Part shown: positions 19,464-63,561 of the stretch, one piece after another | Numbering within the stretch: position 1 is the stretch's first letter | Layout of the letters: each line of letters starts with the position of its first letter | DNA from: a virus | Taxonomy: Duplodnaviria; Caudoviricetes | Virus record (IMG/VR): IMGVR_UViG_3300028833_000066 | Reading direction: 5' to 3' (one strand) | DNA: 64,000 nucleotides | The notes under the pieces: generated by a model | Told to the model about the DNA's origin: nothing | The model's input: the letters and a program-made list of their open reading frames with translations, nothing else | Databases searched by the model: none | Position numbers and translations under genes: made by a program

Positions 19464-20792
19464 ATGAAAAAAGCTTATTCCCTTGATTATTCAATAGAAC
19501 GCGATACAGACCGTACCGCCGCTATCTATGATATACTTGATCGTTTGGACAAAGTGCCAAGTAATACAGAACTTGAACAAATGGCCAACTACATACTTTA
19601 TGGTAAAGATGAAAATGATTAGAATACGGTACAAAGAAAAGAAATAACTGACTCCAACAAGAGATACGGCTCCTTTAAAACTATGGATGACAAACTTCTT
19701 TCATTGGATGAAATATTAGATAATCCAATGGCAGATCATCAAATTTTGGAGCAAAGATATAAACCCTCAGTTTACAAAAAGCCAAAGCCGCATATTGATA
19801 TGCCGAAATATGATAAAAAGACGGGGGCCCTAATAGACCCTGGCGATTCCGACATTCCGTACATGAAAGAACTATGGGACTCTATTAATAGAATGGAACA
19901 TACCGTTGCGGTAAATGAGGGGAAAATTGCGGCCGACGATACTACTCCCATTCTTAAAGATGATTATCGCCTTTATTAGTTAAAGCATTGGCTAATTGAC
20001 TTACGGCGCCACCAATATTATTTGAAGGATGTATATAAACCTGAATTACACTTTTTAGGTATGGATCATCCAAAGCCCCAATTTTACGATTGGACCTCTG
20101 ATGCATTTTACTGGATTTCACGTGACGAGTGGCAAAAAAAGGTTGACAATTCATTAGTACATTATATTTCCAAAAACATTGATGACTATGAGAAACGCAT
20201 TAATCCTTATACTGGAAAAGAAGAAATTAAGTGGGTTGTACGCGAACACCATTTTGATTGGGAAAACCCCGCACATGTAAAGGCTTTAATAAATTGGTAT
20301 GAACCATTGTATGATTAGCTATATGAAAAATTAGATACTTATGGCCGCACCTTAATATGGGACTTTGAACGCTATCGTAAAATGGCCAATTTTTCAGAAG
20401 TAAGAAATTTTATTTTAGAACTAAAAATTCATCGCACTCCTTATAGTGAAATAGTTGAGTTATTACAAAAAACTTATGGACTAAAATATACTGAAAATTA
20501 TTTATGCACAATTTTATCAAAAGAAATACCAGAAAAAATAGCACAAACAGCATAGAAATGGCGCCTTATTGTTGAGACACCCGAAGACGAGTTAAAAGAA
20601 TGTTATACGTGCGGCCGCAAGCTACCACGACACAAACTCTTCTTTGTGTGTAATAAAAACAGAAAGGATGGTTTCTCATCTAATTGTAAAGAATGTGAGA
20701 AATTACATCGTATTGAAAGAGGAGGTCAAAGTGTAGATGACTAGCGAAATAAAGAAACGCAAGTGCTTAAAATGCAAATAGGAAAAACCTGA
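19464..20792 (+). CDS. Hypothetical protein with C-terminal Zn finger, possible regulator (TAG=Gln)
   Basis: Promoter at 19405. Track fragments 19683 and 20022 share the frame. CYTCG...NCKEC; ends at TGA. Confidence 0.75.
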
Positions 20793-21669
20793 ACATGCGT
20801 TTTAGCCTACTAAATCTCCATTCTTTCCGGGCCATCGTTCTCTTATTTGTACAAGCTGTTTGGAAACGTTAATACATTAGGATAATTTAAATGAAGTTGA
20901 TGCGCTTTGCCGCTATTTAGACTTGCCGCTGGATCTTAATAAATGGACTTAGCTGTATGATATACATAAAGATCATACATTATCAGCTTATTTTAATACA
21001 TTGCTTGATGATAGGTATGCGGCCATAAGCTGGGCCGATGAAAATGAGCGCTGGCGGCTAGCCCGTGAAGAAGGCACTATAGATGATGAAATAGATAAAA
21101 TTTCTGAATCTAAGTTGAAGAGACTAAAAAAAGATTGGTCTCCATCATATACTAAAGATGAACTATTATTTTTAGAAGATTATTATAATTAGATTATTGC
21201 CACTTAGAATGTTTCAACTCCAATCTTAAAATCACGTGCCCGTGATCTTTGTGAATTAACATTGCGTGCGAAAAAAGCTATGCGCGAAGGCTTAGATGTA
21301 AAAAAGGATATGGACGCTATCGCGGCTATAATTAAGGATTGTAAGTTTGAGGCTAATAATGCTAAAAATGCGGCCGACTTTGAATCCGTTGGAGAACTTA
21401 TGGTTTATTATGGAAAAAAGGGCTGGCATCCAAAATGGCACACAGAACCGCAAGATTCAATGGATTTTATGATGTAGAATATTTAGAACTACTTAAAGCG
21501 GCTAGTTATAAATGAAGGTAATTTTGCTGAACAAGTAGAAGATAAAAAAGCTCGTTATAATATGACTGAGCGTCTAGAAGAAATTGAAAATGAAGCAGTT
21601 GAATTTGATGATACTGCTGATATAGAATATGAGGGCGAAGATGAACTCGTCGGTGATTTAAATGAATGA
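20737..21669 (+). CDS. Zn-finger protein, possible terminase small subunit (TAG=Gln)
   Basis: CLKC...CTSC N-terminus; directly upstream of and overlapping terL. Confidence 0.6.
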
Positions 21670-23449
21670 GAATACTGATGTTTGTTATAGAGATGGTATT
21701 CCAATTGAGAAAGGCGTAGTTCTTACTCGTGAATTTTTAGACGCTAATTAGGAACTTTTTACTAATTATCTAAATTATTGGTTACTTTATCCAGATTTAT
21801 TTTTAGATGCTATATAGGATTCAGATGATGCTAAACACTTTCATTTACTGCCTTTTTAGCGTATTTCACTTCGTGCTTCAATGCGTTATCGTTATCATTT
21901 CTGGACCGCGACACGTGCTACTTCTAAATCTTTTACAGCATATTTAAGTGCGGTTGTGCGCGCAGTGTTATTACCTAATTCAACTATAATGATTGCTTCT
22001 GATGTAAAAGGAACAGTTATTAAAATTGCTTAGGCTAAGTTTGAAGAAATATTCAAACATTGGCCTTTATTGCGTAAAGAATTAACTGTTAGAGCTGAGG
22101 ATGGTAAAACAGGTCAAAAGGCTAGCGGCAACTACTATGAATTGTGGTTTAAGAATGGTTCAATGATTTCTGTTGTATCCAAAGACACTTCTCGTGGTTT
22201 AAGAGCTACTGCTGCGATTCTTGAAGAAGCCGCTCTTATTGAAGAAGTCCCATATAATGAAGTTCTACTACCGCAAATGAATATTAAAAGAAGAGAAGTT
22301 GATGGCACTTTAAATCCAGAAGAACCATCTGCGGCTCAAATATTTATTACTACTAGTGCCGAACGTACAGTATTTATGTATTAGAAACTTATAGAAATAA
22401 CCATTAATGCTGTCTTGCGGCCAGATGAGTATTTTTCTTGGGGCCTATCATATGAGGTCCCCTTACATTATGGGCTTTTAGATAAAGCAACCTTATTAGA
22501 CCAGCGTTATTCTTCTACGGTGAGTGAAGAATCATTTTCTCGTGAAAATTTATCAATTTGGACTGGTAATAATAAAGATGCGTGGTTGGATTCTCGCAGA
22601 CTTAATAAGCGTCGTACTTTATTAAAATGTGAACGTAAAGCATAGGAGAATCCGCCTAACCCCAATACTTTTTATATAATAGGGGTTGACGTAGCTAGAT
22701 ATTCCGCGAATACGGCTATTATGGTTTTTAAAGTTTTGCCGCAATCTGAAGGCTTTAAGAAAAACTTAATTTATACCGAAGTAATACACGGCGCTAACTA
22801 TATAACTGATTAGGCACCCCGTCTTAAAAAATTAATTTCTCTATTTTAGCCAAGAGAAATTGTTATCGACGGTAATGGCCCTGGTATTGGTTTATTAGAT
22901 GCTATGGTTGTTCCGTCATTTGATGCTAAAACAGGAGAACAATTCCCCGCATATTATGTTTTTAATAACGATCATCATTTGCCACCAGAAATGAAAGTAG
23001 AATCAGAAGAACCCAAACCAGAGTATAGAGCCATTATTTATGACATTAAGGCTGGTTCATCTAATGATGACTTAATTCATTCTAATTTCTTTTCACAAAT
23101 TAATAATGGTACAGTATCATTATTAGCAAATGAACGTATTGTAAAAGATAAATTAGTCTAGACTAAAAAAGGCTAGCGTATGTCATTGTATGATAGACGA
23201 GTTTATTTAATGCCATATGAAATGACTTCGCGGCTAGTAGATGAATGTAATAATTTGCGGTTGAAGCCTACTGGTATTTAGAATCAATTTAAAGTAGAAC
23301 GCATTTCTAAGTCTATTGAAAAGGACCGTTTTTCCGCGATGGAGTATGGACTTTACAGAATAAAGTATTATGAAGATAAAGCGGCAAAGCGAAAAATGCG
23401 GAAACATATATCAGATTTTACTTTCTTTACTTCACATAAGAGGGGGTGA
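21662..23449 (+). CDS. terL: Terminase large subunit (TAG=Gln)
   Basis: LLPF(TAG=Q)R adenine-binding motif, ATRATSKS Walker A, RGLRA..ILEE Walker B, IGVDVA and KDRFSA nuclease motifs. Confidence 0.9.
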
Positions 23450-24996
23450 GTAATTTGGGCGATGAAAAAAGGAACTTTAAGTCCTATAAAAAATTAATAG
23501 CAGAAAGAGCGCCATTAAATGAGCGTTCGTATTCTAGAGGTTGGTATAAAAATGCAGAATCAGTATCAAGAGACTTCAATATTGAAGAAATTGAAGAAAT
23601 TATTTGTTCAGGTGATACGATACATTTGCGTGAGCTCTCTCGTTTTTATTATAGAACTAATAGTAGTTATAGAAATAACATTGATTTCCTAGCTCATTTA
23701 CCATTATATGATACTGCCGTAATTCCAGTATATTAGCCTGGCAAGGGCTCTGAAACATAGATGATGAAGGCATTCTATAATGCTTGCGAATTTGTAGAAA
23801 ATTTAGATTTACCTAATGCTCTTTCTCATATTACTACTGAATGGTTAATTAATGGCGTATATTATGGGATATTAAGAACTTCAAAAGATAAAGTAACAAT
23901 TTAGGATTTACCGCTACAATATTGCCGCACTCGGTTTAAGGATTTCAATAATTTAAATATACTAGAATTTAATTTAAATTATTTTATGAAATTTACCGAT
24001 GAGAAAACCAGAAATGAAGTAGTTTCTACTTTCCCAGAGGTCGTTTAGACAGCTTGGAAACAATGGAATCGCGGAAAGAAACAAACCGATCCTTGGGTAA
24101 TGATAGAAGCTGGCGGCGGAGGGGTATGTTTCAGTTTTACAACAGATGGCGTGCCTCCTTTAATTGGTAGTATTCCAGAACTAAAAAAACTTGCCGATGC
24201 TATTAAACGCGAAGAAAAGCGTGATGAAAATGAATTACATAAATTATTAATTCAAGAAATGCCAATTGATAGTAATGGTCAATTAGTATTTGAATTAGAA
24301 GAAGTAGCAGATATACATTCATCTGTTGCTTCTATGTTAGAGGATTTAGATACTGTTGATGTATTAACTACATTTGGAGAAGCAAAACTTGAAAGTGTCC
24401 AAGACAGTTCGGCTGCTACATAGTCTGCGGATAGAATTGAAAAATATAAAAATAATGCTTGGGATGCTCTTGGTCGTAGTCATATTTTATTTAATCCAGA
24501 TGGCAGTGCTGCATTAGATTATGCTATTAAAAAAGATGAGAGTCTTATGAATGGATATTTAAATTAGTATGAAACTTGGATTAAATTTCATATTAATGAT
24601 AAATTTGCACGTACCAATCTTACGTTTGACTTTGAAATTTTACCAATTACAGTATTTAATCGAGAAGAAATGCAAGGTGTATATTTCCGTGGAGCCCAAT
24701 ATGGCTATTCAAAGATGCTTGCGGGTGTAGCTATGGGTGTAAAGCAGCGTGATCAATTAAGCTTAATGCACTTTGAGAATGATATTCTTGAAATGTCTAT
24801 TAAAATGATTCCTTTACAATCTTCTTACACTACATCTGGTATTCCTGGTCAATAGACAGGAAATTCTTCTTCATCAGCACAAAATACTATAACATAGAAG
24901 TCAAGTGACAACACTAATAATACAGGTGGTCGCCCTGAACTTCCTGACGATAAAAAATCAGAAAAAACTCAGGCAAATATTGCGGCCGCTGGATAA
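23446..24996 (+). CDS. Portal protein (TAG=Gln)
   Basis: Follows terL; about 515 aa; three track fragments in one frame; C-terminal GGRP. Confidence 0.8.
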
Positions 24997-25007
24997 GAGG
25001 GATAATT

Positions 25008-26291
25008 ATGGATAGAAAAATACCAGTTTATTTTGATGTCTAGGTTATGAACTCACCAATAACCGCGATTTCCAGTACTGAACCTAATTTAGGGCGATTG
25101 AAGGTTGCTGTGTTCACTAAATACGCTAACCGCAATGGATCATATATTACTGATGCTGTTGCTGAATAGCTTATTGCGAGTGCCACTCGCGGCAACACTC
25201 CTGTTGTAGGTTTCTTTGATCCAGAAACACAAAGTTGGGCTAGTCATACTGGTCCTACTTTAGCTAATGGATATGGTTATGTTGAAGAGTTTCTTGGGTG
25301 GGAACCTTTAACAGATACCGATGGTGTAACTCGTGATTATGCAATCTTTTCTGTAGTTTTATTTACAGAATATTTTGCAGAGGCACAAAAAATTTTGGGA
25401 CAACATCAATCAATGGAACTTGATCCTAATAGTATTACTGGAGATTGGGGAGAAATATCCGGTGAATATTATTATATATATAAAACCGCCAAGATGTTAG
25501 GTTTTTGTATAATTGGTGAGCACGAACCTTGTTTTTCTGTATCTTCATTCTTTTCTAAAAATGATGAAGCATACGCGAATCAATTTGATAAGTTTTCTTC
25601 ACTTTTGTCATCTTTAAAGGAACGAGTTGAAGAGGCTGATAATAATGCAAAAGGAGGAGAACAAATTATGGATCCAACTTTAGAAAATCAAGAAGTTGAA
25701 GTTGAAGTTGTAGAAGAAAATGTTGAAACTCCTGCGGAAGAACCCGTAGTTGAATTTGAAAACAATGAAGAAGAAGTTGTTGAGCCCGTGGAAGAGCCCG
25801 TTGCAGAGGTTGAGGAAACTCCCGCTGAAGACGAAGAAGAGCCTGCGGCTGAGCCTACTGAATTTGAAGCACTACAATCTCAATTTAATCAGCTTCAAGA
25901 GCAATTTAATGAGTTAAATACCAATTATGAAGCCGCACAAAATCGGGTAACAGAATTAGAAACTGCGCATGCGGCCGAAATTGAAACTTTAAATAACACT
26001 ATCGCGAATTTACAGGCATCTTTATCTAACTATCAAGCACAGGCAATTGCCTCTGAAAATGCTCGTAAAAATGCTTTAGTAGAAAAATATGAAAAAATTA
26101 TCGGAGAGGAAGAAATTAGTGAAATTAAGAACAAGACTAATGACTTCTCCTATGATGAATTGGAAAGTAAGTTGGCAATTACATTTGCTAACAAACAGCT
26201 CAATAGTGTGGAAGAAAGCCCGGTGGTTCCACTCTTAGAGCCAGAAGAATCTCAATTCGCCTTACTTATGAAGAAATATCGTAAAAATTAA
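25008..26291 (+). CDS. Prohead protease/scaffold fusion (TAG=Gln)
   Basis: NRNGSYI...GFCIIG.HEPCF N-domain, then an acidic coiled-coil scaffold; lies between portal and capsid. Confidence 0.75.
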
Positions 26292-26305: not shown

Positions 26306-26887
26306 ATGGCTGATTACAATAGATTTCCTGTTGAACAGTATGCCACTCTTGAGCTAAATCAGGTAGCTTTCCCAAAGACTGGCATGGTAGTTTCTCAGAC
26401 TCCACTTGGCACTGCTTTCACCAAGGATGCTCCTTGCGAGAATGGTATGTGGGTTGTAGCTGACAAGGCTGCTGGTGCTATTAATGCTCCTGCCGCTGCT
26501 ACTGACAAGCCAATTGGTATTGTATATACTGCTGAGAAAGAATATGACATTTTCCATTATGGTCTAAAGACCTTCGGCCGCAAGATTGCTGGCGATTATC
26601 CTCGTGTAGGTATTTTAGGTATTGGTGATACTGTAACTACTAATTGCTTACAATATAGTACTTCTGTATTTGCTGATGATGCTGCTCTAGATACATATCT
26701 AAAGGGCGATTTAACTACTGCTCCTGCTTATGTAATTATTGATGTTACAACTGGTGCAAAAGCTGCTGTTCCTACACTTGTAAAGGCTCTACCACAGAAT
26801 TATGCTGGTGCTTATGGCAGAGTCGTAAAATATTACACTGTACCTAACGGCGAAAAGGGCGTTAAGTATCAGATGGTAAGAGTATAA
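26306..26887 (+). CDS. Head decoration/minor capsid protein
   Basis: Synteny before the MCP; strong RBS; no TAG. Confidence 0.6.
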   Translation: MADYNRFPVEQYATLELNQVAFPKTGMVVSQTPLGTAFTKDAPCENGMWVVADKAAGAINAPAAATDKPIGIVYTAEKEYDIFHYGLKTFGRKIAGDYPRVGILGIGDTVTTNCLQYSTSVFADDAALDTYLKGDLTTAPAYVIIDVTTGAKAAVPTLVKALPQNYAGAYGRVVKYYTVPNGEKGVKYQMVRV

Positions 26888-26893
26888 TGGGAG

Positions 26894-28021
26894 GTGCGAA
26901 CTATGAATAATCTACAAATTTTAATGAATGGTGTATTCGGCCGCAAGGTTCCTGCTGAGTTCGCTGCCGCCGACTATGATTATGAAGCTGCTCTACATGA
27001 TGAGCTAGTAAAGCTTCTTTGTGACGATAAGGGCAAGTTTAGCCGTTCTAAGTATCGTCGTAATAAGGTTGAACTATTTGAACTTCTAGAACAGAATCTA
27101 GAAGAAGTACTCCCACGCAGCGTTGGTTCTGCCCTAGATATGTTCTGCGAGATTATTCACGTAGGACAGGGCGATCGTCTTGAGTTCCGTGTAACCAAGG
27201 GCAAGCAGCGTGGTCGCCAGTTCGTAACTCGTGCTACCGAGTCTGGCAACTATGAGACTTTCCGTCTTGATCGTGATCGTTTCGACATCTGGACCCAGGC
27301 TATTGGTGGTGCCGGATATGTTGATTTCGAGCGTTATCTTGATGGCGTTGAAAATATGTCTGATATTTATGAAGTAATTCAACAGGGTATTGTTGACCGT
27401 ATCTTTGAAATGGTTCAGGAAGCTCTACTACAGACTTGGAATCTAGCTGGCCGTCCTGCCGCTAACAAGGTTGTTGCTACTAACTTTGACCCAGCCGCTA
27501 TGGTAAAGCTTTGCAATACCGTTGCTGCTTATGGTGCTCCAGTTATCTATTGCACTCCTGAGTTCGCTGCTGAAATGACCAATGCTATCGTATATGCTAG
27601 CTCCAATCCTTCTGCTGTTGGCGTAAAGATTTCTGATGTCGATATGCAGGAAGTTCGTGATCGCGGCTACATCGGCAAGTTCCGTGGCGTACCAGTAGTT
27701 GTACTACCACAGTCCTTCACTGATGAATTTAATACCAAGACTGTTATGAATCCTTCTTTCGCTTATGTTATGCCTACTGGCCAAAACAATAAGATAGTAA
27801 AGCTAGGTTTTGAAGGTTCTCCTTACTTCCGTGAATGGGATGACCATGAAGGCGACAATAGCATTGACCTACAGGGTTATGTAAAGTGCGGCGTTGCTGT
27901 AGTTGGTACTCCTAACTATTGGGGAATTTATTACAATGCTGCTATTGATGCTGGTGAGTGGGAAGCTTATAATATGAGCCTACTTTCTGCCGCTGAAAAG
28001 ACTGCTGCTGGTAAGAACTAA
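26894..28021 (+). CDS. Major capsid protein
   Basis: 375 aa, synteny, highly biased codons, no TAG, terminator at about 28036-28060. Confidence 0.85.
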   Translation: MRTMNNLQILMNGVFGRKVPAEFAAADYDYEAALHDELVKLLCDDKGKFSRSKYRRNKVELFELLEQNLEEVLPRSVGSALDMFCEIIHVGQGDRLEFRVTKGKQRGRQFVTRATESGNYETFRLDRDRFDIWTQAIGGAGYVDFERYLDGVENMSDIYEVIQQGIVDRIFEMVQEALLQTWNLAGRPAANKVVATNFDPAAMVKLCNTVAAYGAPVIYCTPEFAAEMTNAIVYASSNPSAVGVKISDVDMQEVRDRGYIGKFRGVPVVVLPQSFTDEFNTKTVMNPSFAYVMPTGQNNKIVKLGFEGSPYFREWDDHEGDNSIDLQGYVKCGVAVVGTPNYWGIYYNAAIDAGEWEAYNMSLLSAAEKTAAGKN

Positions 28022-28088
28022 TAATAATTATATAATCGGGCGGGATTAATTCCCGCCCGAGCTTTGAGTTAAAAGGAGGAATATTATT

Positions 28089-28532
28089 ATGGATAAAATT
28101 ACACTTAAGAACGTAAGTTCTGCAACAGTAGTTGTGAGCTTACCTGATATTCGTTTTAATCGCACTTTAGCACCCGGGCGCATCGTAACGGTAGAAAAAG
28201 ACATTTATGAAGAAATGATGTTTGATACCGGTATTCAAAATTTACTTCATGCTGGATATATCCGTTTTGATGGTGTTCCAGAAGATGAAGAAACTGTAGT
28301 TGTTGACGACGTGCTAGAGTATAAAGAAATTGAAAAAATGATTGATGATCGTGATATTACAGCATTTGCTAAGTTTATTCCTAATGCTACAATGGCAGAA
28401 AAAGAAACTGTAGTAAAGTATGCTGTAGATAGTAATGTAACTGATAATGCTTTTACCGCTCTAATTAAGAAATATTGCGGCGTAGATGTTATCAACGCAA
28501 TTGCGATTAAGCATCAAGCTGAAGAGAAGTAA
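28089..28532 (+). CDS. Virion-associated hypothetical protein
   Basis: AAGGAGG RBS, synteny. Confidence 0.7.
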   Translation: MDKITLKNVSSATVVVSLPDIRFNRTLAPGRIVTVEKDIYEEMMFDTGIQNLLHAGYIRFDGVPEDEETVVVDDVLEYKEIEKMIDDRDITAFAKFIPNATMAEKETVVKYAVDSNVTDNAFTALIKKYCGVDVINAIAIKHQAEEK

Positions 28533-28535
28533 TAA

Positions 28536-30508: not shown

Positions 30509-30518
30509 GGTGATATAT

Positions 30519-53300: not shown

Positions 53301-55865
53301 TAGCCAAAAGTTGAATATAGTGTTACAGTAAATGCTATAAATAAAGATTTCATTGAAGAGGATTATAATTATTTAGGATATATAGCTCATATTAATGATA
53401 CTGATTTAAAGTTTGAAAATGTATAGGGCTATGTGTCTGAACTTCATTTAAAGTTAGATAAGGCTTGGGAAGATGAAGTAACAATTAAAAATTATAAAAC
53501 CAAATTTGAAGATTTATTTACTTCTATTGTTGCTCAAACTGAACAAATGTAGAAAAATTCTACTACGATTGGTAATGTTGGAGCATTATTTGATGCCAAA
53601 GGTGATTTAATCCCTAGCTCAATTGAGAAAGGAATTAATAAATTAGATTTAAGTGAGGCGTTCAATAAAGGCACGCTTACTTGGAATGACGCAGAAGGCT
53701 TGTGGGCTAGTAGTGATAGTGGTGTTGTAGCTATTCGCGGCGGCGGTATTTTTTCCGCGACCCAGAAAAATCCGGATGGAAGTTGGCATTGGAATACCGG
53801 TTTTACTCCTGAAGGAATTAATGCTGACTTGATTACTACTGGACAATTAGATACTAATAGAATTAAAGTATATGCTGGCGATGAGTTAAGATTATAGCTC
53901 AATGCAGATGGATTGTTTGCTTATAAGACAGGATGGGACGGCGAAGTTAAAACTGATGATATAGTGGATTATAAGCAATATGTGGTACATGATGCTAGCG
54001 GTTTATTCTTAATTGCTGAAAATGGTGCTCAATATAAAGATAATGAATTTTTGAACACCGCCGAAATAGATGAGGAAGAGAAGCCAACAACTTATGCGGG
54101 TAATGTAGGATTACATAATCATAAAGATGGCTCATTAGAGCGTGTTGCCATTAGTTGGGATGGCTTGACTTTAAGAAATTGGGCGGGCCAACGAGTATTT
54201 TATGCCAATCCAGACACTGGCGATTTAGTGCTTATAGGCGATATTACCGCTAATAATGGTACGTTTAATGGCACTGTAAATGCTACTAATGGCAATATTG
54301 GCGGCTGGACCATTGGAACAAACTAGCTATATTCTGGGGATAATAATAGCTATGTAGCCTTAAATAGTGATAGTACAAATACGTATGCTATTTGGGCAGG
54401 AGCTACTAATGCTGAAACAACTGATAATAACAATACTACATATGCTCCTTTTAGCGTTAGTAAAGCAGGCCAATTAAGAGCCAGTGACGCAATTATTAGC
54501 GGTGCAATTACTGCTACTAGTTTAACTATTGGTAATTAGTCTGCTGATGATTGGCTCAATGCTAGTATTAACGATGAAGCAATTTGGTTAGGAGTAAAAA
54601 ATTATACTAATACAAATGCTACTAGTATTAAATTAACTGATAGTAGTGTAGAAATTTCATCTACTGGAGCTTTAAATGTAAATACTAATAATGTGATAAT
54701 TAATACTAATGCCGATAGCGAACAATCTATTTTTAAATTAACTGATGGAGCCGCAGTTAATCCAATTAATTATATTAATATTGCTAAAAATACAAATAAT
54801 GAATTATTTGCTTAGATATCTGGATGGTTATTAACAGAACATTAGCTTTCTAGTGGTAATAGTACTAATTCAGTTGTTTTAGATAGCGGTACTAATAATG
54901 AAAATTATGCTATTTGGGCAGGTAATTCAGCTAGTAATAGTGCTCCATTTAGAGTTAAACGTAATGGTAGTGTTTATTTAAATTCTTTAATGGTACTAGA
55001 TAGTCGTTCAAGAAATAGTACTACAGAAAACTGGCCTAGTTGGCCTATTACTGGAACACATTCGGATATTATTACATCTAATGATGGTTTAACACAAACT
55101 GCTTATGTAGATGTAGATTTTTCAGATTCTTTTTCTAATGCCGTTTCATGCACAAGTGGCCGTTGGAACGGCAATACATTTGTCGCCACATTATCTTTAT
55201 TTGGAAAATAGACTAGTAAAACTCTATCATTAAATACTTCTATTAGTCTAGAACGAGCTGTTATTGAAACTCCTGTTCCGCAGGGAAATGGTGGAGATTC
55301 TGTTAGTGGAGTAACCGCGACCGTATATGTAGCGTAGTATATTAAAGGTGTTTATTCTGATTGGACTAAAATGGAAAATGTACCTATTGGATGTACGGAT
55401 GCTTATCAGACTTGGTATGAGGAAGGTTATGATGATGCAACACCAAAATCAATAAGTGTTGGTAGTAAGAATACTAATACTAATTATAATTTTACTATCA
55501 CTTCAAATGATAATTTAACGACCACACTTTCTTGTGGTGTAGGTACAATTTATACTGATGGGCATACAAATGGAATTAATGAAGAAAAGCCAGCTAGTCT
55601 TACTGTTAAAAGTAAAAATAGTAATACTCAATATCTTTTTACCATAACTCCTACAAATGGTAATTTAGCTGATACTACATTGTCGTGTGACGTAACTGAC
55701 ATTTATACCAATGGATATAATGTTGGACGAAGTAGCGTTGACTCTGCGAGCAGCACGTCTTTTTCAATTTTACGCAATGGTAGTAATTCTGGTATTCTAA
55801 CTTATACGGTTAATCTTGAAAATGGTAAATCAATTAGCGGTAGTACTACAATTTCTTGGTCATAA
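50319..55865 (+). CDS. Tail tip/central fibre (Tal, host specificity) protein, about 1,850 aa (TAG=Gln)
   Basis: Nine fragments in one frame; GINADLITTGQLD motif; C-terminal internal repeats. Confidence 0.75.
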
Positions 55866-55905
55866 AAAAATAAGCCCCTCCCATTACGGGAGGGGCCTTA
55901 TTTTT
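55865..55905. terminator. Bidirectional terminator between convergent blocks
   Basis: A-run, GCCCCTCCC-ATTAC-GGGAGGGGC, T-run. Confidence 0.85.
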
Positions 55906-56302
55906 ATTCCTCTAGGAAAGCACTAAAGCTAAGCATTTGCTGAGGTGTGAATGTTTCATCGCCTAAATCATCTAGGTTTAGCTTATCGCCATTAATTGTA
56001 ATTTTGTTATTAAGTAAATCAGTTAGCTCACTATTGAACTCAGCAACATGCTCCTGTTCAATATAAGTATTTCCATTTTCATCAGCCTTTAGTTCGCCAT
56101 TTTCATCCTTGGCACCATAAAGCTTCACTAGATTAATACGTGCAGTCTCAAAAGTCTCGCTTTCAGCTTGAACTTCACGAAGTAGTCTTGCGACTCTAAA
56201 AGCTACCTTACTCTTTAGCTGCTTATTAGATAATTCTCTCAAAGTAGGAATGCTATCAATCATTTCCTGAACAGTTAATTCAATCATATATCTTCTCCCC
56301 AT
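55904..56302 (-). CDS. Hypothetical protein
   Basis: Clean ORF; the real start may be 56287. Confidence 0.7.
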   Translation of the reverse strand: MGRRYMIELTVQEMIDSIPTLRELSNKQLKSKVAFRVARLLREVQAESETFETARINLVKLYGAKDENGELKADENGNTYIEQEHVAEFNSELTDLLNNKITINGDKLNLDDLGDETFTPQQMLSFSAFLEE

Positions 56303-57030
56303 TTTAACTTATTATTTTTTATTTTACCACACCAGTATTTCCCAATGCATATCGCATCAGCCTCATCTTGTGTACATTTTTCACCATACCATAACATAAC
56401 TTTATCCTATGCGGCTTTTTTCTTATTTTCACGATGTGAATCGCCGCCACTAATGCCGCAATATTTACGCCATTCGCTGGGATAGACTAAATCGCCATCA
56501 ATACTTTTTTCAAATAATGTATCCATTATCACGCCTTGTAAATTAGCAAGCACGCGATAAGTTTCAACTTGAAATGCAGAATTACCGCCATAAGATTGAA
56601 GCTAAATGTGTTCAACGCCAACGAAGTCTGGTTCCCACTAGTCGATAGCGGCTAAAAGCCAATGTTTTACTTCGTTAATACGACTTGTGGCATTATCTTC
56701 GGCTTCGGTTTTAAAAGTACCATAACTTACTAACACTTTATTATCATAGATAGCATAGCCAGTAATATTAGTTGCGGCGTCTAATGCTAATATTCTTTGC
56801 GTGTTCGCTTGTTTAGCGGGCACTTTATTTTTTTTACCCTTGAAGGGATCTCCCGCAAGGCACTATTCGCATAGCATATGCTTTCGCCAGTTAGCGTAGG
56901 TTTGAAACTAACGATGACCTTGCGGGCAAATCATTTCAAGTTCTGTATTAAGATTCTTGTATGTATTCGATACTAAAACCCAATGTTCTGATTCTAAATG
57001 ATTTTTTACTGTATAAATATTTATTGGCAT
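56284..57030 (-). CDS. Zn-ribbon + RuvC-like Holliday junction resolvase (TAG=Gln)
   Basis: CPQGH...CEQC, ILALDAAT..TGYA, VEHIQ, DEADAICIG. Confidence 0.8.
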
Positions 57031-57824
57031 TACTTACCAGTGCTCCCAAAGCCGCCTTCTCCGCGGTCAGATGGGCCAAGAATATCAACCTGAACAGGTT
57101 TAAATTGATGTACAGGAGCAATAATCATTTGTGCGATACGATCGCCCTTATGAATGACATATTCAGAATCAGAATGATTATCATACATTACGCCAATTTC
57201 GCCGCGATAGCCACTATCAATTACGCCAACACTATTGCTTAGTCGCAAACCAGTCTTCATTCCTATACTAGAACGAGGTAGAATATAAGCTACCCAGCGT
57301 TCAGGTAAAGCAATTCTCAAACCTGTGCGAACAACGTTTGATAGTGAATGGGGCGGTAATGTCGTATCTTCTAGAGCATAAACATCCGCAGCCGCATCTG
57401 TATCATGAGCATATGATGGCTCTTTAGCATCTTCATCAAGCTTGATCGGTAATTCAAAATCATAGCTATGATATTTATCTAGTGCTTCTTCAAAGATACC
57501 ACAGAAGATTTCTATTAATTTATCTAGCAATAATTTCTTTCCAGCACTAGGCTGTAAATCTTCTACATATGCTTCCAAATCTTCACGATTTTTTTCAACA
57601 ATTGATTGAACAAAATCGCGAGTATAATTTTGGGCCTCAAATGTGTCAATTATATCTTTAATTGACTTTGCTCTTATATTATTAGTAATTGAACCTTCAA
57701 TCATACCACTTAATGATTCAACGATATCCTCTGTTAAACCATCATCAGGTAATTCCATTACCTAAGTGAATAGGTCAGAAATAGGACTGTCAATATCAAA
57801 TGGTGGATTTCTTACTTCACTCAT
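57030..57824 (-). CDS. dut: Trimeric dUTPase with a long acidic N-terminal extension
   Basis: AADVYA, PRSSIG, GVIDSGYRGE, RIAQ and RGEGGFGSTG motifs. Start extended through one TAG to ATG 57824. Confidence 0.9.
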
Positions 57825-57834
57825 TTTTATCGCC

Positions 57835-58038
57835 TCACTCAAAAGTTTTTTCTACAGTTACAACGGCCCAGCTGTCAATGATTTCGCCCTTCTGTTTCTT
57901 AGTTTTTAGAACGTATCCAGACTTTGTAAGCGTGTAACCTTCAGCATTCTGGCTGCTCTTGAAATCATCAATCAGCCGCATAGCTTCATCTTCATCATTT
58001 ACTCTATAAACATCAGTTGTCTTCATCAGCATCTTCAT
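57835..58038 (-). CDS. Hypothetical protein (MKMLMKTTDVYRV...)
   Basis: ORF with RBS. Confidence 0.7.
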   Translation of the reverse strand: MKMLMKTTDVYRVNDEDEAMRLIDDFKSSQNAEGYTLTKSGYVLKTKKQKGEIIDSWAVVTVEKTFE

Positions 58039-58294
58039 AATTTTCTTTCTCCTTTTTCTCATTTAATATTCTTAACTTTTCAATTAAATCAATATAATTT
58101 AGTTTCTTTGCTGTATCTGTTATTGAATCAAGTTGCTGGCGGCCTTTCTTACCGCCCTTTTTAGCTAGCTTTCGCCGCGAGGCTCTATTTAGTTTAATGC
58201 CAATTTTTTCTCCAAGAAAATCTTTTAAATTATCAATGGCGTTTTTATCATCTACTATTGCTTCATCCATTAGTAGTTCATTTTCTTCTGCCAT
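58013..58294 (-). CDS. Hypothetical protein
   Basis: LNRASRRK motif; start MAEENE follows a GGTGG RBS. Confidence 0.65.
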   Translation of the reverse strand: MAEENELLMDEAIVDDKNAIDNLKDFLGEKIGIKLNRASRRKLAKKGGKKGRQQLDSITDTAKKLNYIDLIEKLRILNEKKEKENYEDADEDN

Positions 58295-58295
58295 T

Positions 58296-59291
58296 TTAAC
58301 CACCTTCCTTGCGATTATATCCAAATTCTTGTGTCTTAAAGAAGTCTATATAATATTTCTCTAAATCACTCAAATCATCTTTATCGCAATATGTAATATA
58401 TTCAATAGACCAATTCCAGAAACCAGTGCGTAATATTTCGTGATGAACATACTAATCAGCTATTGATTTGATGCCAACACTTGATTTGAAGTGGTCTTGA
58501 ATACGTTTCTTAATATCTGTGCTTTTTCCTATATATGCTTTTCCGCTATCTATATTTGTCAATTTATAGATGCCAGGTTCAGCCTTGATACCAACTCGCT
58601 TAATTGTTTCATCTAAATATGGCTTAACATATTCAGCCCAAACTAATTTGCTAATAATGTCTGGATGCTAAACCTTTTTAGCAACTGTATTAAGCAAGAA
58701 ATCAATATCCTCTCTAAATTCTTCTGGAAGATAAATTGTATAGAATAGTTTCTACTATTTATCTTTTTCATACTATTTTAGTGGTTCTAACAATGCTTCA
58801 TATTTTTGCTACTCATATGCGGCCGCATTTTCACAAGATTTTATTTTATCTTGTAATTCTTTTACAACTTCTGCGGTAGCATTTTTAGCCTACTCTGTTT
58901 GTTCTTCACAATTCTTTAATATCTCTTGTAAAGTTTTCTCATAGACTTCTTTTTTATTATTCATTTCATGTTCTAAAGCATCTAGCCGTGTAGTACGCTA
59001 TTCTTCAATATAATTAGATATTTCAATTGTGCTTTGATATAGAGCTTCACGATACGCATCCTATGCGGCGGCAGTATCAGTTTGAAGTTTTTGTAATGCG
59101 TTTCGCCGCGAAACTTCTTCCTACTCTAATTTATTACACTATAGTTTAGCACTATATAAATGTGTATTTAATTCTTCTAATTCTTTGCGTTCTTGTTCTA
59201 TATTAAATCTATCACTCTTAACCTTGCGGCTAAGCTTAATAATTAAAACAATTATGATAACACACAGTGCTCCAATTATACCATACAGCAC
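58296..59291 (-). CDS. Membrane-anchored coiled-coil GIY-YIG nuclease (TAG=Gln; absent from the track)
   Basis: N-terminal YGIIGALCVIIIVLII, then GIYKLTN...AYIGKS...R...E...GYN. Own promoter at about 59325-59353. Confidence 0.8.
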
Positions 59292-59373
59292 TACACATTC
59301 GCCACCTCTTTTCTTTTATACTTTATTATAACATAAAGTTTCAGAAAAGTCAAATGTTGGGTAGGATAATTTC

Positions 59374-59850
59374 TTATCCTACCCATTCAGCGTATTGATT
59401 ATCAGAAGCTAAATTAACTCCTAATACTTCATCATAATGTGGCTCTTGCCCCATAATATAGCGACCATATTTAATTATGATATTTTTATATTCTTGAATA
59501 ATATCCAAACATTCGATTTCATCTTTATTATAACCAGTATAAATAACTATCACATCATCGCAGTTCATGCCAGCACGAATAAAATCAATAAAATTAAGAA
59601 GTGTCGGCTCTGAATCAAATGGTTCTAATCCTTGTAGGCAAAAACCCTTGGTTAATGGATTAGCTTTATACATATCCCAAATAGTATATTCACTAACATC
59701 AATATCAGGTTCGGCCGCTAGTTTGCTGTTCTAGCAAACTTGGCAACCATTAAGTTTATCACATTTAAAATCGCAAGTGGGAAATTCTAGTGTCATTACT
59801 GGCTCTTTGTAGTTAGTGAAATCACAATCTATAATACCTTTAAGTTTCAT
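59374..59850 (-). CDS. nrdG: Anaerobic RNR activating protein (TAG=Gln)
   Basis: CDFKCDKLNGCQVCQN, GLEP, YTGY and ASDNQ; next to nrdD. Confidence 0.8.
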
Positions 59851-60163
59851 ATTTTTTCTCCATATGTTCAAGACATATTTTTACTTGATTTTTCCATTGC
59901 TCTTCTTTTTCTTTTTTTATTGGATAATTAGAACACTAAGTCCTCCAGCAAGTTTCAAAAGGTGCACCCAACATGCATTCGTTACAACTTTTTCTTACTT
60001 CTATTAAAGGACACCAATCTGGACGTTTATGGTCATTAATAGTGTCACTTAATTCCCAAGCTTTTGCTTCTAAATGCCCATGGCAATAATCGAACTCATC
60101 ATCAATTAATGGGCAAGCATAGCAATCTTTAGGTAATCCTATATTGTATTCAATTCTTATCAT
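59840..60163 (-). CDS. Cys-rich protein (read through TAG at 59936)
   Basis: CYACP...RPDWCPL...CNEC; the extended frame ends overlapping the nrdG start. Confidence 0.65.
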
Positions 60164-62072
60164 TCAAATGCTCCCATTGTCTCATTTTAAATTCAGCCTT
60201 GCGTTCTTTACTCCAGGTCTTAATCGGCGTATAAAAGCCTACAATTCGCGTATATTCAGTTACTACATCGCCACCACAAATCGGGCACTTAGTTCCATAA
60301 AAAGCATGGTTATGCTCGCAAGCTTGAATCTTTGTATTAAAAGCAAAATAAGTAAGCCCTTGGTCAGCTATATAATTTACTGCTTCCCAAGCTTTTTCAA
60401 AACTATCAAATGGTGCATCAATATTTAAATGGGCAATGCTGCCACCATTGCAATAGCTATCAAATAGAGAAGCAATACGAATGCGTTCAGCCATTGTAGT
60501 TTTAATACCAAGTGGGATAAACTGATTGCCATATAGCGGCAAGTCTTTTACTACTGTTTCAGGGAATAAAAACTCATCAGCTAATTGCATCTTAGCGGCC
60601 GCAGATTCTCCCGGAATTTGCTCTACATTAATTTTATAATCTTTATCAGCAGCAAACTCATCCTTTACTCTATGTAAGGTTTGGAAGATTCTTTTTCCGA
60701 AAGCATCAGCGCGCTCAGTATAATAGACATTGCCTAATTCATCTTCGCGTGTATAGCCAAAAGTTTTCATAGTTTCATAAATACCAATAATACCTACTGT
60801 ATTATATAGATGTTCAAAATCAACTATGCCCTTCGAGAAATTTGGCAGTAAGCCTTTCTCTACATTACGACGAATGATATGGCGAACACAATCCAAAGCT
60901 TTACAATCTAGTTCTACAAGGTCTCGCAATCTAATTAAATAATCTTCTTCATTTTCTGCTTCTAATGCGATTCGTGCGAGATTAACGGTAGAAACTTTCA
61001 CAGAGCCTACTTTGAGAGCCGTTCCGCCTATACTATTAAAATACCCCAAGTCTTCAATATTACTTTTTAAGCGGCAACAATTACTTAATGAATTAACACT
61101 ATCATCAATAAAGAGATTACTATCACTCCATATACGATTATGCTCAATTCCCCAGCGGGCGAAAGCTTCATCCGCGAATTTACCATTCTTGCGAAGAAGG
61201 CTAATTGTTAATACAGGGAAAGTAAACATATTATGTTGTCTAATTTCAGCAATTGTTTCCATAAAGACCTTTTGGAAATCTTGAATACCTTGTAATTCAT
61301 CAATCATAAAGGTTTCATCTGGGAACATTGAACCTCCAAATAAAGCTTCAAGATAAGCCATATCAAATACAGAACAGTTTGTGAAAGCACTTTGCATACC
61401 ATCCCTTACATATGGTTGATTAACAGCATATACAAAACGCTGGATTTGCTGGCGAGCGTAATATTCAGGAGACTTTGTGGCGTATCCATTCTCACAATCT
61501 TTCTTCCAGAAATAATACATATATGGAATAAGATTGGGCAAGCCGACAGCACCGGAGCTACGATTGGCCGCAAAGCTAATAAATTCTTTTACAAAATCTA
61601 CAAAGGTAGATAAGTGCTTTGGAGGCTCGGCGTTGAAATTATTTAGGAAGAATAGGCCCTTCTCTGCCACATCCTTTAAATCATAAGCAAAGCAATAATG
61701 AATATATGTCGAAGTATCAGCATCGTGCATATATAAAGCTTTAGTCCACTCCTTCTCAAGCCATTCATTCGCGGCTTGGAAACCATAGCGTTTATTCATT
61801 TCATAATAAATTTTATTGAAAGCTAGTAGCTTACGATGTGGTTTTGGCATTTCATTCATCAGCGTCCGCATGTCTTTATTGCCAACATTTGAGTTACCAT
61901 CAACAGAAACATCAGCGACTGTATCTTTATCAATAAAGTTATCAATAAAGTCAGTATATGATAACTGCTTATCACCAAAACCATTTAGATAAGCCATTTC
62001 TTCTCCATACTTTTCGCTCATTCGGTTATAAGCAGTCTGGAAATTCTTATTTAATCTAACCTTAATATCCAT
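60150..62072 (-). CDS. nrdD: Class III (anaerobic) ribonucleotide reductase
   Basis: SNCCRL, NGGSI, CPICG and TRIVGFY glycyl-radical loop. Confidence 0.92.
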   Translation of the reverse strand: MDIKVRLNKNFQTAYNRMSEKYGEEMAYLNGFGDKQLSYTDFIDNFIDKDTVADVSVDGNSNVGNKDMRTLMNEMPKPHRKLLAFNKIYYEMNKRYGFQAANEWLEKEWTKALYMHDADTSTYIHYCFAYDLKDVAEKGLFFLNNFNAEPPKHLSTFVDFVKEFISFAANRSSGAVGLPNLIPYMYYFWKKDCENGYATKSPEYYARQQIQRFVYAVNQPYVRDGMQSAFTNCSVFDMAYLEALFGGSMFPDETFMIDELQGIQDFQKVFMETIAEIRQHNMFTFPVLTISLLRKNGKFADEAFARWGIEHNRIWSDSNLFIDDSVNSLSNCCRLKSNIEDLGYFNSIGGTALKVGSVKVSTVNLARIALEAENEEDYLIRLRDLVELDCKALDCVRHIIRRNVEKGLLPNFSKGIVDFEHLYNTVGIIGIYETMKTFGYTREDELGNVYYTERADAFGKRIFQTLHRVKDEFAADKDYKINVEQIPGESAAAKMQLADEFLFPETVVKDLPLYGNQFIPLGIKTTMAERIRIASLFDSYCNGGSIAHLNIDAPFDSFEKAWEAVNYIADQGLTYFAFNTKIQACEHNHAFYGTKCPICGGDVVTEYTRIVGFYTPIKTWSKERKAEFKMRQWEHLNDKN

Positions 62073-62074
62073 AT

Positions 62075-62290
62075 TTATCCCTCCGGCTGTGCTTTAATCC
62101 ATTCATTCATTTCAGTCGGAGAAGTGAACATTGTGCCATCTTCTAATTGCATTACTGGAAGACGTTGAATATTTTTTTCAATTAGCGGCTGAATGTCATG
62201 TGTTTCACTAAACTTAATATTCTTTTTATTAAGCTTCATTTTAATCATTTTACAGATACCACAAGTAGGGCTCGTATATAATTGTATCAT
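62075..62290 (-). CDS. Glutaredoxin/NrdH-like protein
   Basis: YTSPTCGICK...LPV. Confidence 0.8.
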   Translation of the reverse strand: MIQLYTSPTCGICKMIKMKLNKKNIKFSETHDIQPLIEKNIQRLPVMQLEDGTMFTSPTEMNEWIKAQPEG

Positions 62291-62296
62291 ATAATA

Positions 62297-62503
62297 TCAC
62301 TCCAAATTCTTTCCACAATATGGACATTTACTATCTACCATTACAAAATTATGTTTAGCACTAAAATGCGGGCATTGCTCTTGTAATTCTTTTAATTCAT
62401 TGAAGATATTTTTTACATCTTCATTTAAAACCATATTAGCAGCAGCAATTTTTAGCCGCTAGTTTAGGTTCTCGTGTTTTAAAATAATTTCATCCATCGT
62501 CAT
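62297..62503 (-). CDS. Small Zn-binding protein (TAG=Gln)
   Basis: LQEQCPH...CPYCG. Confidence 0.65.
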
Positions 62504-63561
62504 GCTCTCCACACTCCTCTTTTTGATAAATCATTATAAGTTTGTGTAAATAAATCAGCGGCAGAAGGGTGAAATTTCAGTAGTATTTTCTTTTCTTCTA
62601 TTACCGCCATTTTACGTAGTAATCTATCGTTTATGCTAATTCCGGGATTATTTAGTTGACTCCAAGTAGCTATAAGTTTTAATAAATTTATAATATTACT
62701 TGTTATTCCAATTTTAGAAGGTATGTATTTTAATTTAATCGGTATTTTATAAGACCAGAATGAATATAAAATATTTAATTTATAAATTAGATCCTTATAA
62801 TACTGTAAATTAGTTTGAAAAGTTCCACCAATAGGAATATAAACCGCAGTATTTTTAGTAATATCTGCTAAAAACATATTTTGATATTTTTTTAGCATAT
62901 AGTTCACTTCGTTTAATGGTACTTCGGTATCTAATAAAATATCATTAGAACGAGTAATTTTAGGGTAGGTTCTTAATTTAAAATATTGTGATAGTGTTTT
63001 ACAAACAATAGGATGAATACTATGAATACCTCTTACTTTTCTATCTATTGCCTCTTGTATTGTATCTTCCCAATCATAAGAAAAAAAATCAGTATCATAT
63101 AGATATAAAAGTTTATTTGATTTGATAGAAGGCATCGGTAATTTTTCTTCACCTGCATATCGGCGATAATATGTATTATCTAATAATTGATTTATAATAT
63201 TTGTTTTAATGCCTTCATCATATTTTTCTTTTAAGAAGTTTTTATAAATCCAAGTTTTAGGTAATGTAAAGTCAATAATTGAATTTTGAAATGGAATATA
63301 TTCACCATTTGTAAATCCTGTGCCACCATAAATAATATTAGATTGACGTTTTAATATATCAGGAATTACTGGATCAAATGTTTCACTAAAACAATATATT
63401 ATATCATAACCTTCCATTATTGTATCTTTTAAAGAGACAAGATTACAGAACAGATTTTCTTCTGTTCTGTAATAACTTGCCAATTTCATTATTTCTACAT
63501 TAGGAGGGCATAGACTTGTAGATTTTGTGGTCTATAAATCTAAATCTACCAAACCTATCAT
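62500..63561 (-). CDS. Degenerate radical-SAM-family-like protein (TAG=Gln)
   Basis: MIGLVDLD...PNVEIMKLASYY...YGGTG N-terminus; no CxxxCxxC. Confidence 0.5.

What the first reader, a model, noticed from the sequence alone, without database searches (positions are those of the whole stretch)
19464..63561. TAG is reassigned to glutamine (genetic code 15)
Track fragments join in frame across TAG only, and the joined genes end in TAA or TGA. TAG occupies conserved Gln positions: terminase LPFQ (21857), tape measure YYQQG (35556) and AGNRQQSRF (36132), resolvase EHIQ. Stop-codon recoding is known in gut phages, but it hides whole genes here. No suppressor tRNA or release factor was seen in this window.
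Basis: partly seen in the sequence, partly recalled or inferred. Interest (0 to 1): 0.7.

Follow-up and report, generated by a model that had tools for sequence, protein, structure and literature searches.

The report
Phage genes reading TAG as glutamine
This is part of a large uncultured gut or rumen phage that uses the stop codon TAG as a glutamine codon in most of its middle and late genes. This is a known habit of such phages, so the case is real and clear-cut but not new in kind.

Summary

**TAG is a sense codon.**
- With TAG read as sense, long-frame coverage of 19.4-56 kb rises from 0.19 to 0.99.
- 26 genes hold 268 in-frame TAG and no in-frame TAA or TGA. All 26 end in TAA or TGA.
- One frame is a 4955-aa tape measure gene with 152 TAG.

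**TAG means Gln.**
- Against three standard-code relatives (Enterococcus EF1, Lactococcus 949, Bacillus Sophrita), Gln is the best assignment by 25 log units.
- In about 40 close relatives from IMG/VR, the window's TAG sites hold CAA, CAG or TAG.
- 10 of 11 near-invariant TAG columns are Gln.

**Machinery.**
- The window has no tRNA. Q-type relatives of 163-190 kb each carry one tRNA(CUA) far from this module. The five relatives searched have no release factor and no GlnRS/GluRS.
- The 19-kb early block has 31 perfect sigma-70 promoters and no TAG. The major capsid protein, the probable tube protein and NrdD also avoid TAG.

**Verdict.** New member of a known kind: code-15 phages such as crAss-like, Lak and the phAss-1 group.

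**Context.** In the same clade some phages read TAG as Glu and some use the standard code. The Gln readers' tRNA has an odd extra arm. This scan had already noted both points on other DNA.

The parts
3..581 (+). 3' part of an unnamed gene with 5 in-frame TAG, lying upstream of the early block
   Evidence: Listed as an open-ended ORF under TAG=Q. Its pieces are 72% identical to G003 and G006. No Pfam or PHROG hit.
660..19434 (.). Early block of mini-genes that reads the same under both codes. Transcription diverges from about 14.3 kb: minus strand to the left, plus strand to the right.
   Evidence: 31 perfect TTGACA-N16-18-TATAAT sites; 103 promoter-like sites against 33.8 +/- 5.7 in shuffles. 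14 ORFs conserved in relatives end in TGA or TAA and have no in-frame TAG. GC is 41-49%. Paralogue families and repeated palindromes are present.
19452..20792 (+). Sigma-factor-like gene with 5 TAG, preceded by a perfect sigma-70 promoter at 19405-19434
   Evidence: PHROG 5767 'sigma factor', E 6e-17; promoter; TAG count.
20644..21669 (+). Conserved unnamed gene next to the terminase, 9 TAG
   Evidence: PHROG 3314, E 6.5e-39.
21662..23449 (+). Terminase large subunit, 11 TAG
   Evidence: PHROGs 2 and 9. 30% identical to the 949 and Sophrita terminases. TAG sites correspond to CAA/CAG in relatives.
23446..24996 (+). Portal protein, 8 TAG
   Evidence: PHROG 2739, E 1.6e-67; tblastn hits to annotated portal genes.
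25008..26291 (+). Gene after the portal (scaffold-like position), 2 TAG
   Evidence: PHROG 3313; synteny with 949 gp145 and Sophrita gp221.
26306..29018 (+). Four TAG-free genes: 26306-26887, the major capsid protein 26894-28021, 28089-28532 and 28536-29018
   Evidence: The capsid model has pLDDT 74 and an HK97 fold (HK97, lambda, encapsulins; probability 1.0). The capsid gene has 0 TAG among 14 Gln-type codons, P 6e-4, and 0 TAG in 21 of 21 recoded relatives.
29249..31806 (+). Three head-tail or virion genes with 5, 2 and 5 TAG
   Evidence: PHROGs 6123 and 4051.
31827..32768 (+). Probable major tail (tube) protein, TAG-free
   Evidence: PHROG 2729 'virion structural protein'. 36% identical to the genes at the same position in 949 and Sophrita. 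0 TAG in 15 of 16 relatives. The fold model failed (pLDDT 46), so the name rests on position.
32799..33728 (+). Second PHROG 2729-like gene, 6 TAG
33786..48653 (+). Tape measure protein of 4955 aa with 152 TAG, which is 53% of its Gln-type codons
   Evidence: Pfam PF10145, 96.6 bits at residues 570-777. PHROG 4211, E 1.5e-33. One frame with no TAA or TGA. Relatives have 4347-5623 aa.
48660..55865 (+). Two large distal-tail genes of 544 aa (12 TAG) and 1848 aa (30 TAG); function not shown
   Evidence: No family hit.
55904..64000 (-). Nucleotide-metabolism and replication module: PHROG 1401 gene (0 TAG), RuvC-like resolvase (5), dUTPase (0-1), GIY-YIG endonuclease (11), NrdG (1), unnamed 107-aa gene (1), NrdD (0), unnamed 360-aa gene (0-1), and the C-terminal end of a DNA polymerase gene
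   Evidence: Pfam and PHROG hits; TAG counts. NrdD has 0 TAG among 19 Gln-type codons, P 4e-5.

Best explanation
The window holds the early block, the whole virion module and part of the replication module of a large siphophage. Relatives have genomes of 163-190 kb.

**Shown.**
- TAG is never a terminator here. It is a sense codon that stands for glutamine and makes up 41% of the Gln-type codons in the 26 genes of the recoded block.

**Inferred from relatives.**
- TAG is read by one phage-encoded tRNA with anticodon CUA, which lies in a tRNA array outside the window.
- That tRNA is charged by host enzymes, because the relatives carry no GlnRS/GluRS and no release factor.

**Inferred model.**
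- The early mini-genes have perfect host-type promoters and no TAG, so they can be translated by the unmodified host.
- Genes that carry TAG, including a sigma-like gene behind an early-type promoter, terminase, portal and tape measure, give full-length protein only once the tRNA has built up.
- The most abundant proteins (major capsid, probable tube) and NrdD avoid TAG. The likely reason is that decoding in competition with host release factor 1 is slow or leaky.
For: **TAG is sense.**: coverage rises from 0.19 to 0.99; 268 in-frame TAG and no in-frame TAA/TGA in 14,416 codons; 26 of 26 genes end in TAA or TGA. 14 conserved early genes also end in TAA or TGA.

**TAG is Gln.**
- Q is best by 25.6 log units over K and 37 over E against three standard-code phages. 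17.7% of TAG columns align with Q, against 17.1% for true CAA/CAG columns.
- Q in 120 of 120 homologous TerL proteins at three of the TAG sites.
- the same columns hold only TAG, CAA or CAG at the DNA level.
- 10 of 11 near-invariant TAG columns are Q.

**Machinery in relatives.**
- One tRNA(CUA) each in G003, G004 and G006, in G005 and in G007, G008 and G010.
- No RF-1 domain and no tRNA-synt_1c family in five relatives, while the control genomes score.

**Gene-class pattern.**: capsid 0/14 and NrdD 0/19; the capsid gene is TAG-free in 21 of 21 recoded relatives and the tube gene in 15 of 16. One search gives the promoters.

**Published precedent.** 10.1101/2021.08.26.457843, PMC9523058, PMC10607447.
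Against: - The window's own suppressor tRNA was not seen. Its genome is not held, and the two closest records (TerL 98% and 92%) are fragments without a tRNA(CUA).
- The host and its code are unknown.
- There is no protein-level evidence.
- The tRNA(CUA) of Gln-reading relatives has a long extra arm like Ser, Leu or Tyr tRNAs. On shape alone that would not predict Gln.
- The timing and gating model is inference only. About half of all genes in relatives carry TAG, replication genes included, so the switch is not simply 'late genes only'.
Confidence: 0.9

Rival explanations
1. TAG is read as glutamate here, as in the sister phages G006, L044 and L047 of the same clade.
For: In G006, 9 of 11 near-invariant TAG columns are E. 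In L044, 13 of 15 are E. G006 even has TAG at the position of the E in the window resolvase's VGVEH motif. These phages share about 77% TerL identity with the window and G006 nests among Gln readers in the quick tree. One of the window's 11 near-invariant TAG columns is E.
Against: The window's TAG columns fit Q, not E: -398 against -435 versus standard-code phages. Q is the majority residue in 28 columns and E in 7, and Q holds 10 of the near-invariant columns against 1 for E. The nearest relatives, L002 and L032, are Q-type.
Confidence: 0.03
2. TAG is read as Ser, Leu or Tyr, or ambiguously, because the clade's tRNA(CUA) has the long extra arm typical of those tRNAs.
For: The tRNA(CUA) of G003, G004 and ten other contigs is 85-90 nt long with an extra arm and G73. 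The G004 copy scores 34 bits on the tRNA-Sec model, below the cut-off.
Against: S, Y and L are 58, 91 and 124 log units worse than Q for the window. G003 and G004, which carry this tRNA, each have Q at 10 of their 12 near-invariant TAG columns. Invariant Gln sites would not tolerate Ser or Leu.
Confidence: 0.03
3. The host itself reads TAG as Gln, so the phage simply matches its host and there is no code switch.
For: The host is unknown. Code-matched phages exist for code-25 hosts (10.1101/2021.08.26.457843).
Against: Relatives carry their own tRNA(CUA). The early block and the most abundant proteins avoid TAG entirely, which a code-matched phage would not need to do. Standard-code and Glu-reading phages sit in the same clade. 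I know of no bacterium with TAG = Gln (own knowledge).
Confidence: 0.03
4. The TAGs are damage in a decaying prophage or assembly errors, and the genes are dead.
For: Under table 11 the genes look shattered.
Against: Only one of the three stops occurs, 268 times, with no TAA or TGA in 14,416 codons. The sites are shared with or swapped for CAA/CAG in dozens of independent assemblies. Protein similarity runs across the TAGs.
Confidence: 0.01

Closest known systems
TAG-to-Gln recoded ('genetic code 15') gut phages: crAss-like, Lak and the gemstone clades (Borges et al. preprint 10.1101/2021.08.26.457843; proteomic proof in PMC9523058)
   Same: In-frame TAG in structural and some replication genes. 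TAG aligns with Gln. Early genes read the same under both codes. A phage-borne tRNA(CUA) is present. Standard-code and recoded members are mixed within one clade.
   Different: This is an unrelated siphophage lineage known from IMG/VR metagenome contigs. The relatives searched have no release factor or synthetase gene. Their suppressor tRNA has an extra arm. I could not test whether this clade is one of the named gemstone clades.
phAss-1 group (proposed Phassvirus; NCBI 'Caudoviricetes code 15 clade'; PMC10607447)
   Same: Large siphophage with TAG = Gln in terminase, portal, tape measure and some DNA enzymes. Own tRNA-Sup(CUA) and no synthetase. Long tape measure (3149 aa). The portal is a detectable homologue at 29%.
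   Different: Only a distant relative. phAss-1 is 136 kb with three suppressor genes called Gln-type by tRNAscan-SE. Here the relatives are 163-190 kb with one suppressor, and the tape measure is 4955 aa.
Standard-code large siphophages: Lactococcus 949, Enterococcus EF1, Bacillus vB_BanS_Sophrita
   Same: Same gene order from terminase to tape measure, with 22-37% protein identity. Very long tape measures of 2675-3277 aa.
   Different: They use the standard code. Where the window has TAG they have Gln codons at the conserved sites.
Sister phages of the same clade that read TAG as Glu (IMG/VR records behind L049/G006, L044 and L047)
   Same: About 77% TerL identity, the same module order, a giant tape measure and one tRNA(CUA).
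   Different: Their TAG sits at Glu columns: 9 of 11 near-invariant columns in G006 and 13 of 15 in L044. G006's tRNA(CUA) is a 75-nt ordinary cloverleaf with G1-U72 and A73. I found no paper reporting TAG = Glu in phages.

Membership tests
Phage stop-codon recoding, TAG to Gln (NCBI table 15) | Conserved genes are broken by in-frame TAG only, and become whole when TAG is read as sense | tested here: met
   268 TAG and 0 TAA/TGA in frame; coverage 0.19 to 0.99.
Phage stop-codon recoding, TAG to Gln (NCBI table 15) | TAG aligns with Gln in homologues that use the standard code | tested here: met
   (Q best by 25.6 log units)..
Phage stop-codon recoding, TAG to Gln (NCBI table 15) | TAG is not used to end genes | tested here: met
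   26 of 26 genes in the recoded block and 14 of 14 conserved early genes end in TAA or TGA.
Phage stop-codon recoding, TAG to Gln (NCBI table 15) | The phage genome encodes a suppressor tRNA with anticodon CUA | not testable with these tools
   None in the window and the rest of this genome is not held. Present once in each of seven relatives, so it is expected.
Phage stop-codon recoding, TAG to Gln (NCBI table 15) | A set of early genes reads the same under both codes | tested here: met
   The early block 660-19434 has no in-frame TAG in conserved ORFs and has host-type promoters.
Phage stop-codon recoding, TAG to Gln (NCBI table 15) | The host uses the standard code | not testable with these tools
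   Host unknown. Cultured relatives infect Bacillota.
Phage stop-codon recoding, TAG to Gln (NCBI table 15) | Gln found at TAG positions in the proteins | not testable with these tools
   Needs proteomics.
Pyrrolysine decoding of TAG | TAG confined to a few genes, with tRNA-Pyl and pyl genes present | tested here: not met
   TAG makes up 1.9% of the codons in the 26 genes and sits at Gln columns. The pyl genes were not searched for.
TAG to Glu recoding seen in sister phages | TAG aligns with Glu in homologues | tested here: not met
   Window: Q at 10 near-invariant columns against E at 1. E is 37 log units worse than Q.

The most novel reading that the evidence does not exclude
The window may belong to a clade in which the meaning of TAG has flipped several times between stop, Gln and Glu, among phages whose terminases are 75-80% identical.

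Its Gln readers, probably including this phage, rely on an 85-90-nt tRNA(CUA) with two notable features. The acceptor end looks like that of tRNA-Gln: a weak 1-72 pair, G2-C71 and G73. The extra arm carries the heptamer CUCUGAA, which is the tRNA's own anticodon loop CUCUAAA with the Gln triplet CUG in place of CUA.

If that arm is what makes host enzymes load Gln, it would be a new way of giving a stop-codon reader an amino-acid identity. It could also explain how sister phages switch amino acid. My evidence shows the tRNA family and the Gln/Glu split. It does not show that the arm forms a loop or is recognised, or that the window's own genome carries this tRNA.
Probability: 0.3. Interest if true: 0.75.

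Novelty: new member of a known kind. Interest (0 to 1): 0.35.

Why it matters
**Annotation.** Under the standard table this 64-kb stretch yields fragments and hides a terminase, a portal and a 4955-aa tape measure. Under table 15 it is a complete virion module. Pipelines must try TAG as sense for this abundant metagenomic lineage.

**Do not assume Gln for the whole clade.** Close relatives read TAG as Glu or use it as a stop. The amino acid should be inferred genome by genome.

**Biology.** The window is a very clean example of three translation classes in one phage:
- early genes with no TAG
- abundant proteins with no TAG
- everything else, with up to half of its Gln codons written as TAG

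That makes it a good test system for the idea that recoding times or doses gene expression.

Tried and rejected
**Tools or data that were not available.**
- The whole genome is not held.
I could not follow the TerL homologues on 180-kb contigs or find this phage's own tRNA.

**Searches that found nothing.**
- Megablast of the structural module against GenBank phages: no match.
- Rfam on the window: nothing.
- PDB sequence search with the resolvase: no useful hit. I used phage homologues instead.

**Analyses that were inconclusive.**
- Other codes for the first 19 kb (TGA or TAA as sense) gave no clean frames. The region is simply packed with small standard-code genes.
- Pairwise similarity of the relatives' tRNA(CUA) to other phage tRNAs was inconclusive, with at most 71% identity and mixed best partners.
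- The fold model of the probable tube protein failed (pLDDT 46).
- The careful TerL tree did not finish in time. Only the quick tree is reported.

**Ideas tested and rejected.**
- Some clade members looked mixed Q/E in pairwise counts (L022, L024, L025). At near-invariant columns they are plain Q readers, so I dropped the idea of ambiguous decoders.
- Pyrrolysine, Ser/Leu/Tyr decoding, pseudogenes and a code-matched host were considered and rejected, as set out under the rival explanations.
Full report
**What is in the window.**
- Read with TAG as a stop, the window shows no long gene between 19.4 and 56 kb.
- Read with TAG as sense, the same stretch resolves into a tight plus-strand module. 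PHROG and Pfam name these genes:
  - a sigma-factor-like gene (19452)
  - terminase large subunit (21662)
  - portal (23446)
  - several virion proteins
  - a tape measure protein of 4955 aa (33786-48653; PF10145, 96.6 bits; PHROG 4211)
- Two large tail genes follow the tape measure gene.
- A minus-strand module follows (55904-64000). It holds a RuvC-like resolvase, dUTPase, a GIY-YIG endonuclease, NrdG, NrdD and the end of a DNA polymerase gene.
- The gene at 26894 gives a model of pLDDT 74 with an HK97 fold, so it is the major capsid protein.
- Gene order and 22-37% protein identity match the large siphophages Lactococcus 949, Enterococcus EF1 and Bacillus Sophrita.

- Stop-to-stop frames of at least 150 aa cover 19% of 19.4-56 kb under table 11.
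  - With TAG as sense they cover 99%.
  - With TGA as sense they cover 21%, and with TAA as sense 56%.
- In each 4-kb block of the tape measure gene the coding frame has 0 TAA, 0 TGA and 39-40 TAG. The other two frames carry tens to about a hundred of each stop.
- Over 26 genes and 14,416 codons there are 268 in-frame TAG and no in-frame TAA or TGA. 18 genes end in TAA, 8 in TGA and none in TAG.
- Caveat: in three genes (28915, 57030, 62500) the single TAG lies in an N-terminal extension that may not be translated. The dUTPase of relatives has no TAG.

**Which amino acid?** I masked TAG as X and compared.
- *Three standard-code phages.*
  - 147 TAG columns fit the substitution profile of Gln best: Q -398.0, K -423.6, E -435.3, S -456.2, Y -489.1, L -522.2.
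  - TAG aligns with Q in 17.7% of columns. Genuine CAA/CAG codons do so in 17.1%.
- *The 120 closest TerL proteins in the big protein collection.* Three of the window's 11 TAG sites are Q in 120 of 120.
- *DNA of 21 IMG/VR relatives.* Those columns hold only TAG, CAA or CAG (for example TAG 8, CAA 14), so the Q calls do not come from someone else's table-15 translation.
- *All genes with at least 8 non-TAG homologues.* Q is the majority residue at 28 of 59 TAG columns. Q holds 10 of the 11 columns that are at least 90% one residue.

**Pattern of use.**
- TAG supplies 41% of the Gln-type codons overall, and 53% in the tape measure gene.
- It is absent from the capsid gene (0 of 14, P 6e-4), NrdD (0 of 19, P 4e-5), the probable tube gene and four small genes.
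- This absence is conserved. The capsid gene has no TAG in 21 of 21 recoded relatives, and the tube gene has none in 15 of 16.
- TAG-free genes write Gln mostly as CAG. TAG-rich genes use almost only CAA.
- The first 19 kb is a different world:
  - GC is 41-49%.
  - It holds small paralogous genes.
  - It has 31 perfect TTGACA-N16-18-TATAAT promoters, arranged divergently around 14.3 kb.
  - Conserved ORFs have no in-frame TAG and end in TGA or TAA.
- The last perfect promoter sits just before the TAG-bearing sigma-like gene.

**Machinery.**
- The window has no tRNA. Its genome is not held.
- Relatives found through TerL are mostly 71-98% identical, with two distant members at 55-56%. They include complete 163-177-kb genomes with terminal repeats.
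- G003, G004 and G006 each carry exactly one tRNA(CUA).
- Five relatives have no RF-1 domain and no GlnRS/GluRS family gene, while the control genomes score.
- In the Gln readers G003 and G004 the tRNA is 87-90 nt long with an extra arm, G73, G2-C71 and a weak 1-72 pair.
- A pattern scan found the same family on 12 IMG/VR contigs. Three more of these are large genomes (142-190 kb) whose TerL is 75-77% identical to the window's.
- In all 12 copies the extra arm contains the Gln triplet CUG.
  - Ten copies have CUCUGAA, which is the anticodon loop CUCUAAA with one base changed.
  - Two have UUCUGAG.
- In G005 the same tRNA gene is split in the anticodon loop by a group-I-like intron of about 175 nt.
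- I infer that the window's phage carries such a tRNA outside the window. Earlier notes of this scan had already described this arm on other genomes. I confirmed the sequence feature but not that it forms a loop, and its role is unproven.

**Clade context.**
- All-against-all comparison sorts the relatives into three groups:
  - *Gln readers*: most of them, including the window and its nearest kin L002 and L032.
  - *Members with essentially no in-frame TAG*: for example L033, L045 and L048.
  - *A small group whose TAG sits at Glu columns*: G006 (the genome behind L049), L044 and L047. In G006, 9 of 11 near-invariant columns are E. In L044, 13 of 15 are E.
- G006 has TAG at the position of the E in the window resolvase's VGVEH motif.
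- G006's tRNA(CUA) is an ordinary 75-nt cloverleaf.
- A quick TerL tree nests the Glu reader and the standard-code members among Gln readers and needs at least four code changes.
- The papers I could search report Gln for TAG in phages, and code lability between 11, 15 and 4, but not Glu. Other agents in this scan reported the Glu reading on other DNA. I reached it independently.

**Verdict.**
- The finding is correct and striking in scale. It is a new member of a well-described kind, not a new kind.
- The more novel matters, the Gln/Glu split and the extra-arm suppressor, lie in relatives and outside the window. This scan has already flagged both elsewhere.

Noticed in passing
window 660-19434: Extraordinary density of perfect sigma-70 consensus promoters: 31 sites with 12 of 12 matches. 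They are on the minus strand up to 14134 and on the plus strand from 14537. Each precedes a mini-gene. There are paralogue families (3078/7520/10609/12895; 9060/11451; 8335/16765 NT5C-like; 13621/18149). GC is 41-49%, against about 32% in the late genes.
   Followed up: partly
window 902-18951 (e.g. 6423-6449, 13493-13527, 14371-14405, 18736-18770): Recurrent palindromic element of the GTTAGTTATGACTAAC type, often next to GCCGGC, between the early mini-genes. It could be an operator or a terminator. Not examined further.
   Followed up: no
window 33786-48653: The tape measure protein is 4955 aa; relatives have 4347-5623 aa. If tail length scales with it as in other siphophages (about 0.15 nm per residue, my own knowledge), the tail would be roughly 0.7 micrometres. 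Only residues 380-1600 match known tape measure families.
   Followed up: partly
window 19405-20792: A perfect early-type promoter directly precedes a sigma-factor-like gene that has 5 TAG. The gene could be transcribed early yet give full-length protein only after the suppressor tRNA appears.
   Followed up: no
window 26306-28021, 31827-32768, 55904-56302: TAG-free genes write Gln mainly as CAG (capsid 11 CAG to 3 CAA). TAG-rich genes use almost only CAA (tape measure 116 CAA to 19 CAG). So there is a separate codon dialect for abundant proteins.
   Followed up: partly
L133:729-991 (IMG/VR record G005, relative): The suppressor tRNA(CUA) gene is split in its anticodon loop by an insert of about 175 nt. 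The insert matches the group I intron model (RF00028, 36.5 bits, E 1e-7, below the family cut-off). The joined exons equal the intact tRNA of another relative (L113).
   Followed up: partly
L052:970-1096 (record G003, relative): A second interrupted tRNA-like gene (GTA anticodon region, 127 nt, Rfam tRNA 30 bits) lies between tRNA-Tyr and the suppressor tRNA.
   Followed up: no
L058:1585-2168 and L052:1-171 (relatives G004, G003): ROOL RNA (RF03087; 328 bits in G004, and an 85-bit match in G003 that is cut off by the locus end and falls below the cut-off) sits inside the phage tRNA arrays next to the suppressor tRNA.
   Followed up: no
Records G006/L049, L044, L047 (relatives): These sister phages use TAG at Glu positions, including the position of the E in the window resolvase's VGVEH motif. 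G006's tRNA(CUA) is a 75-nt cloverleaf with G1-U72 and A73.
   Followed up: yes
window 58296-59291: A GIY-YIG homing-endonuclease-like gene with 11 TAG, including an adjacent TAG-TAG pair, sits between the dUTPase and NrdG genes. A mobile gene has therefore fully adopted the phage's code.
   Followed up: no
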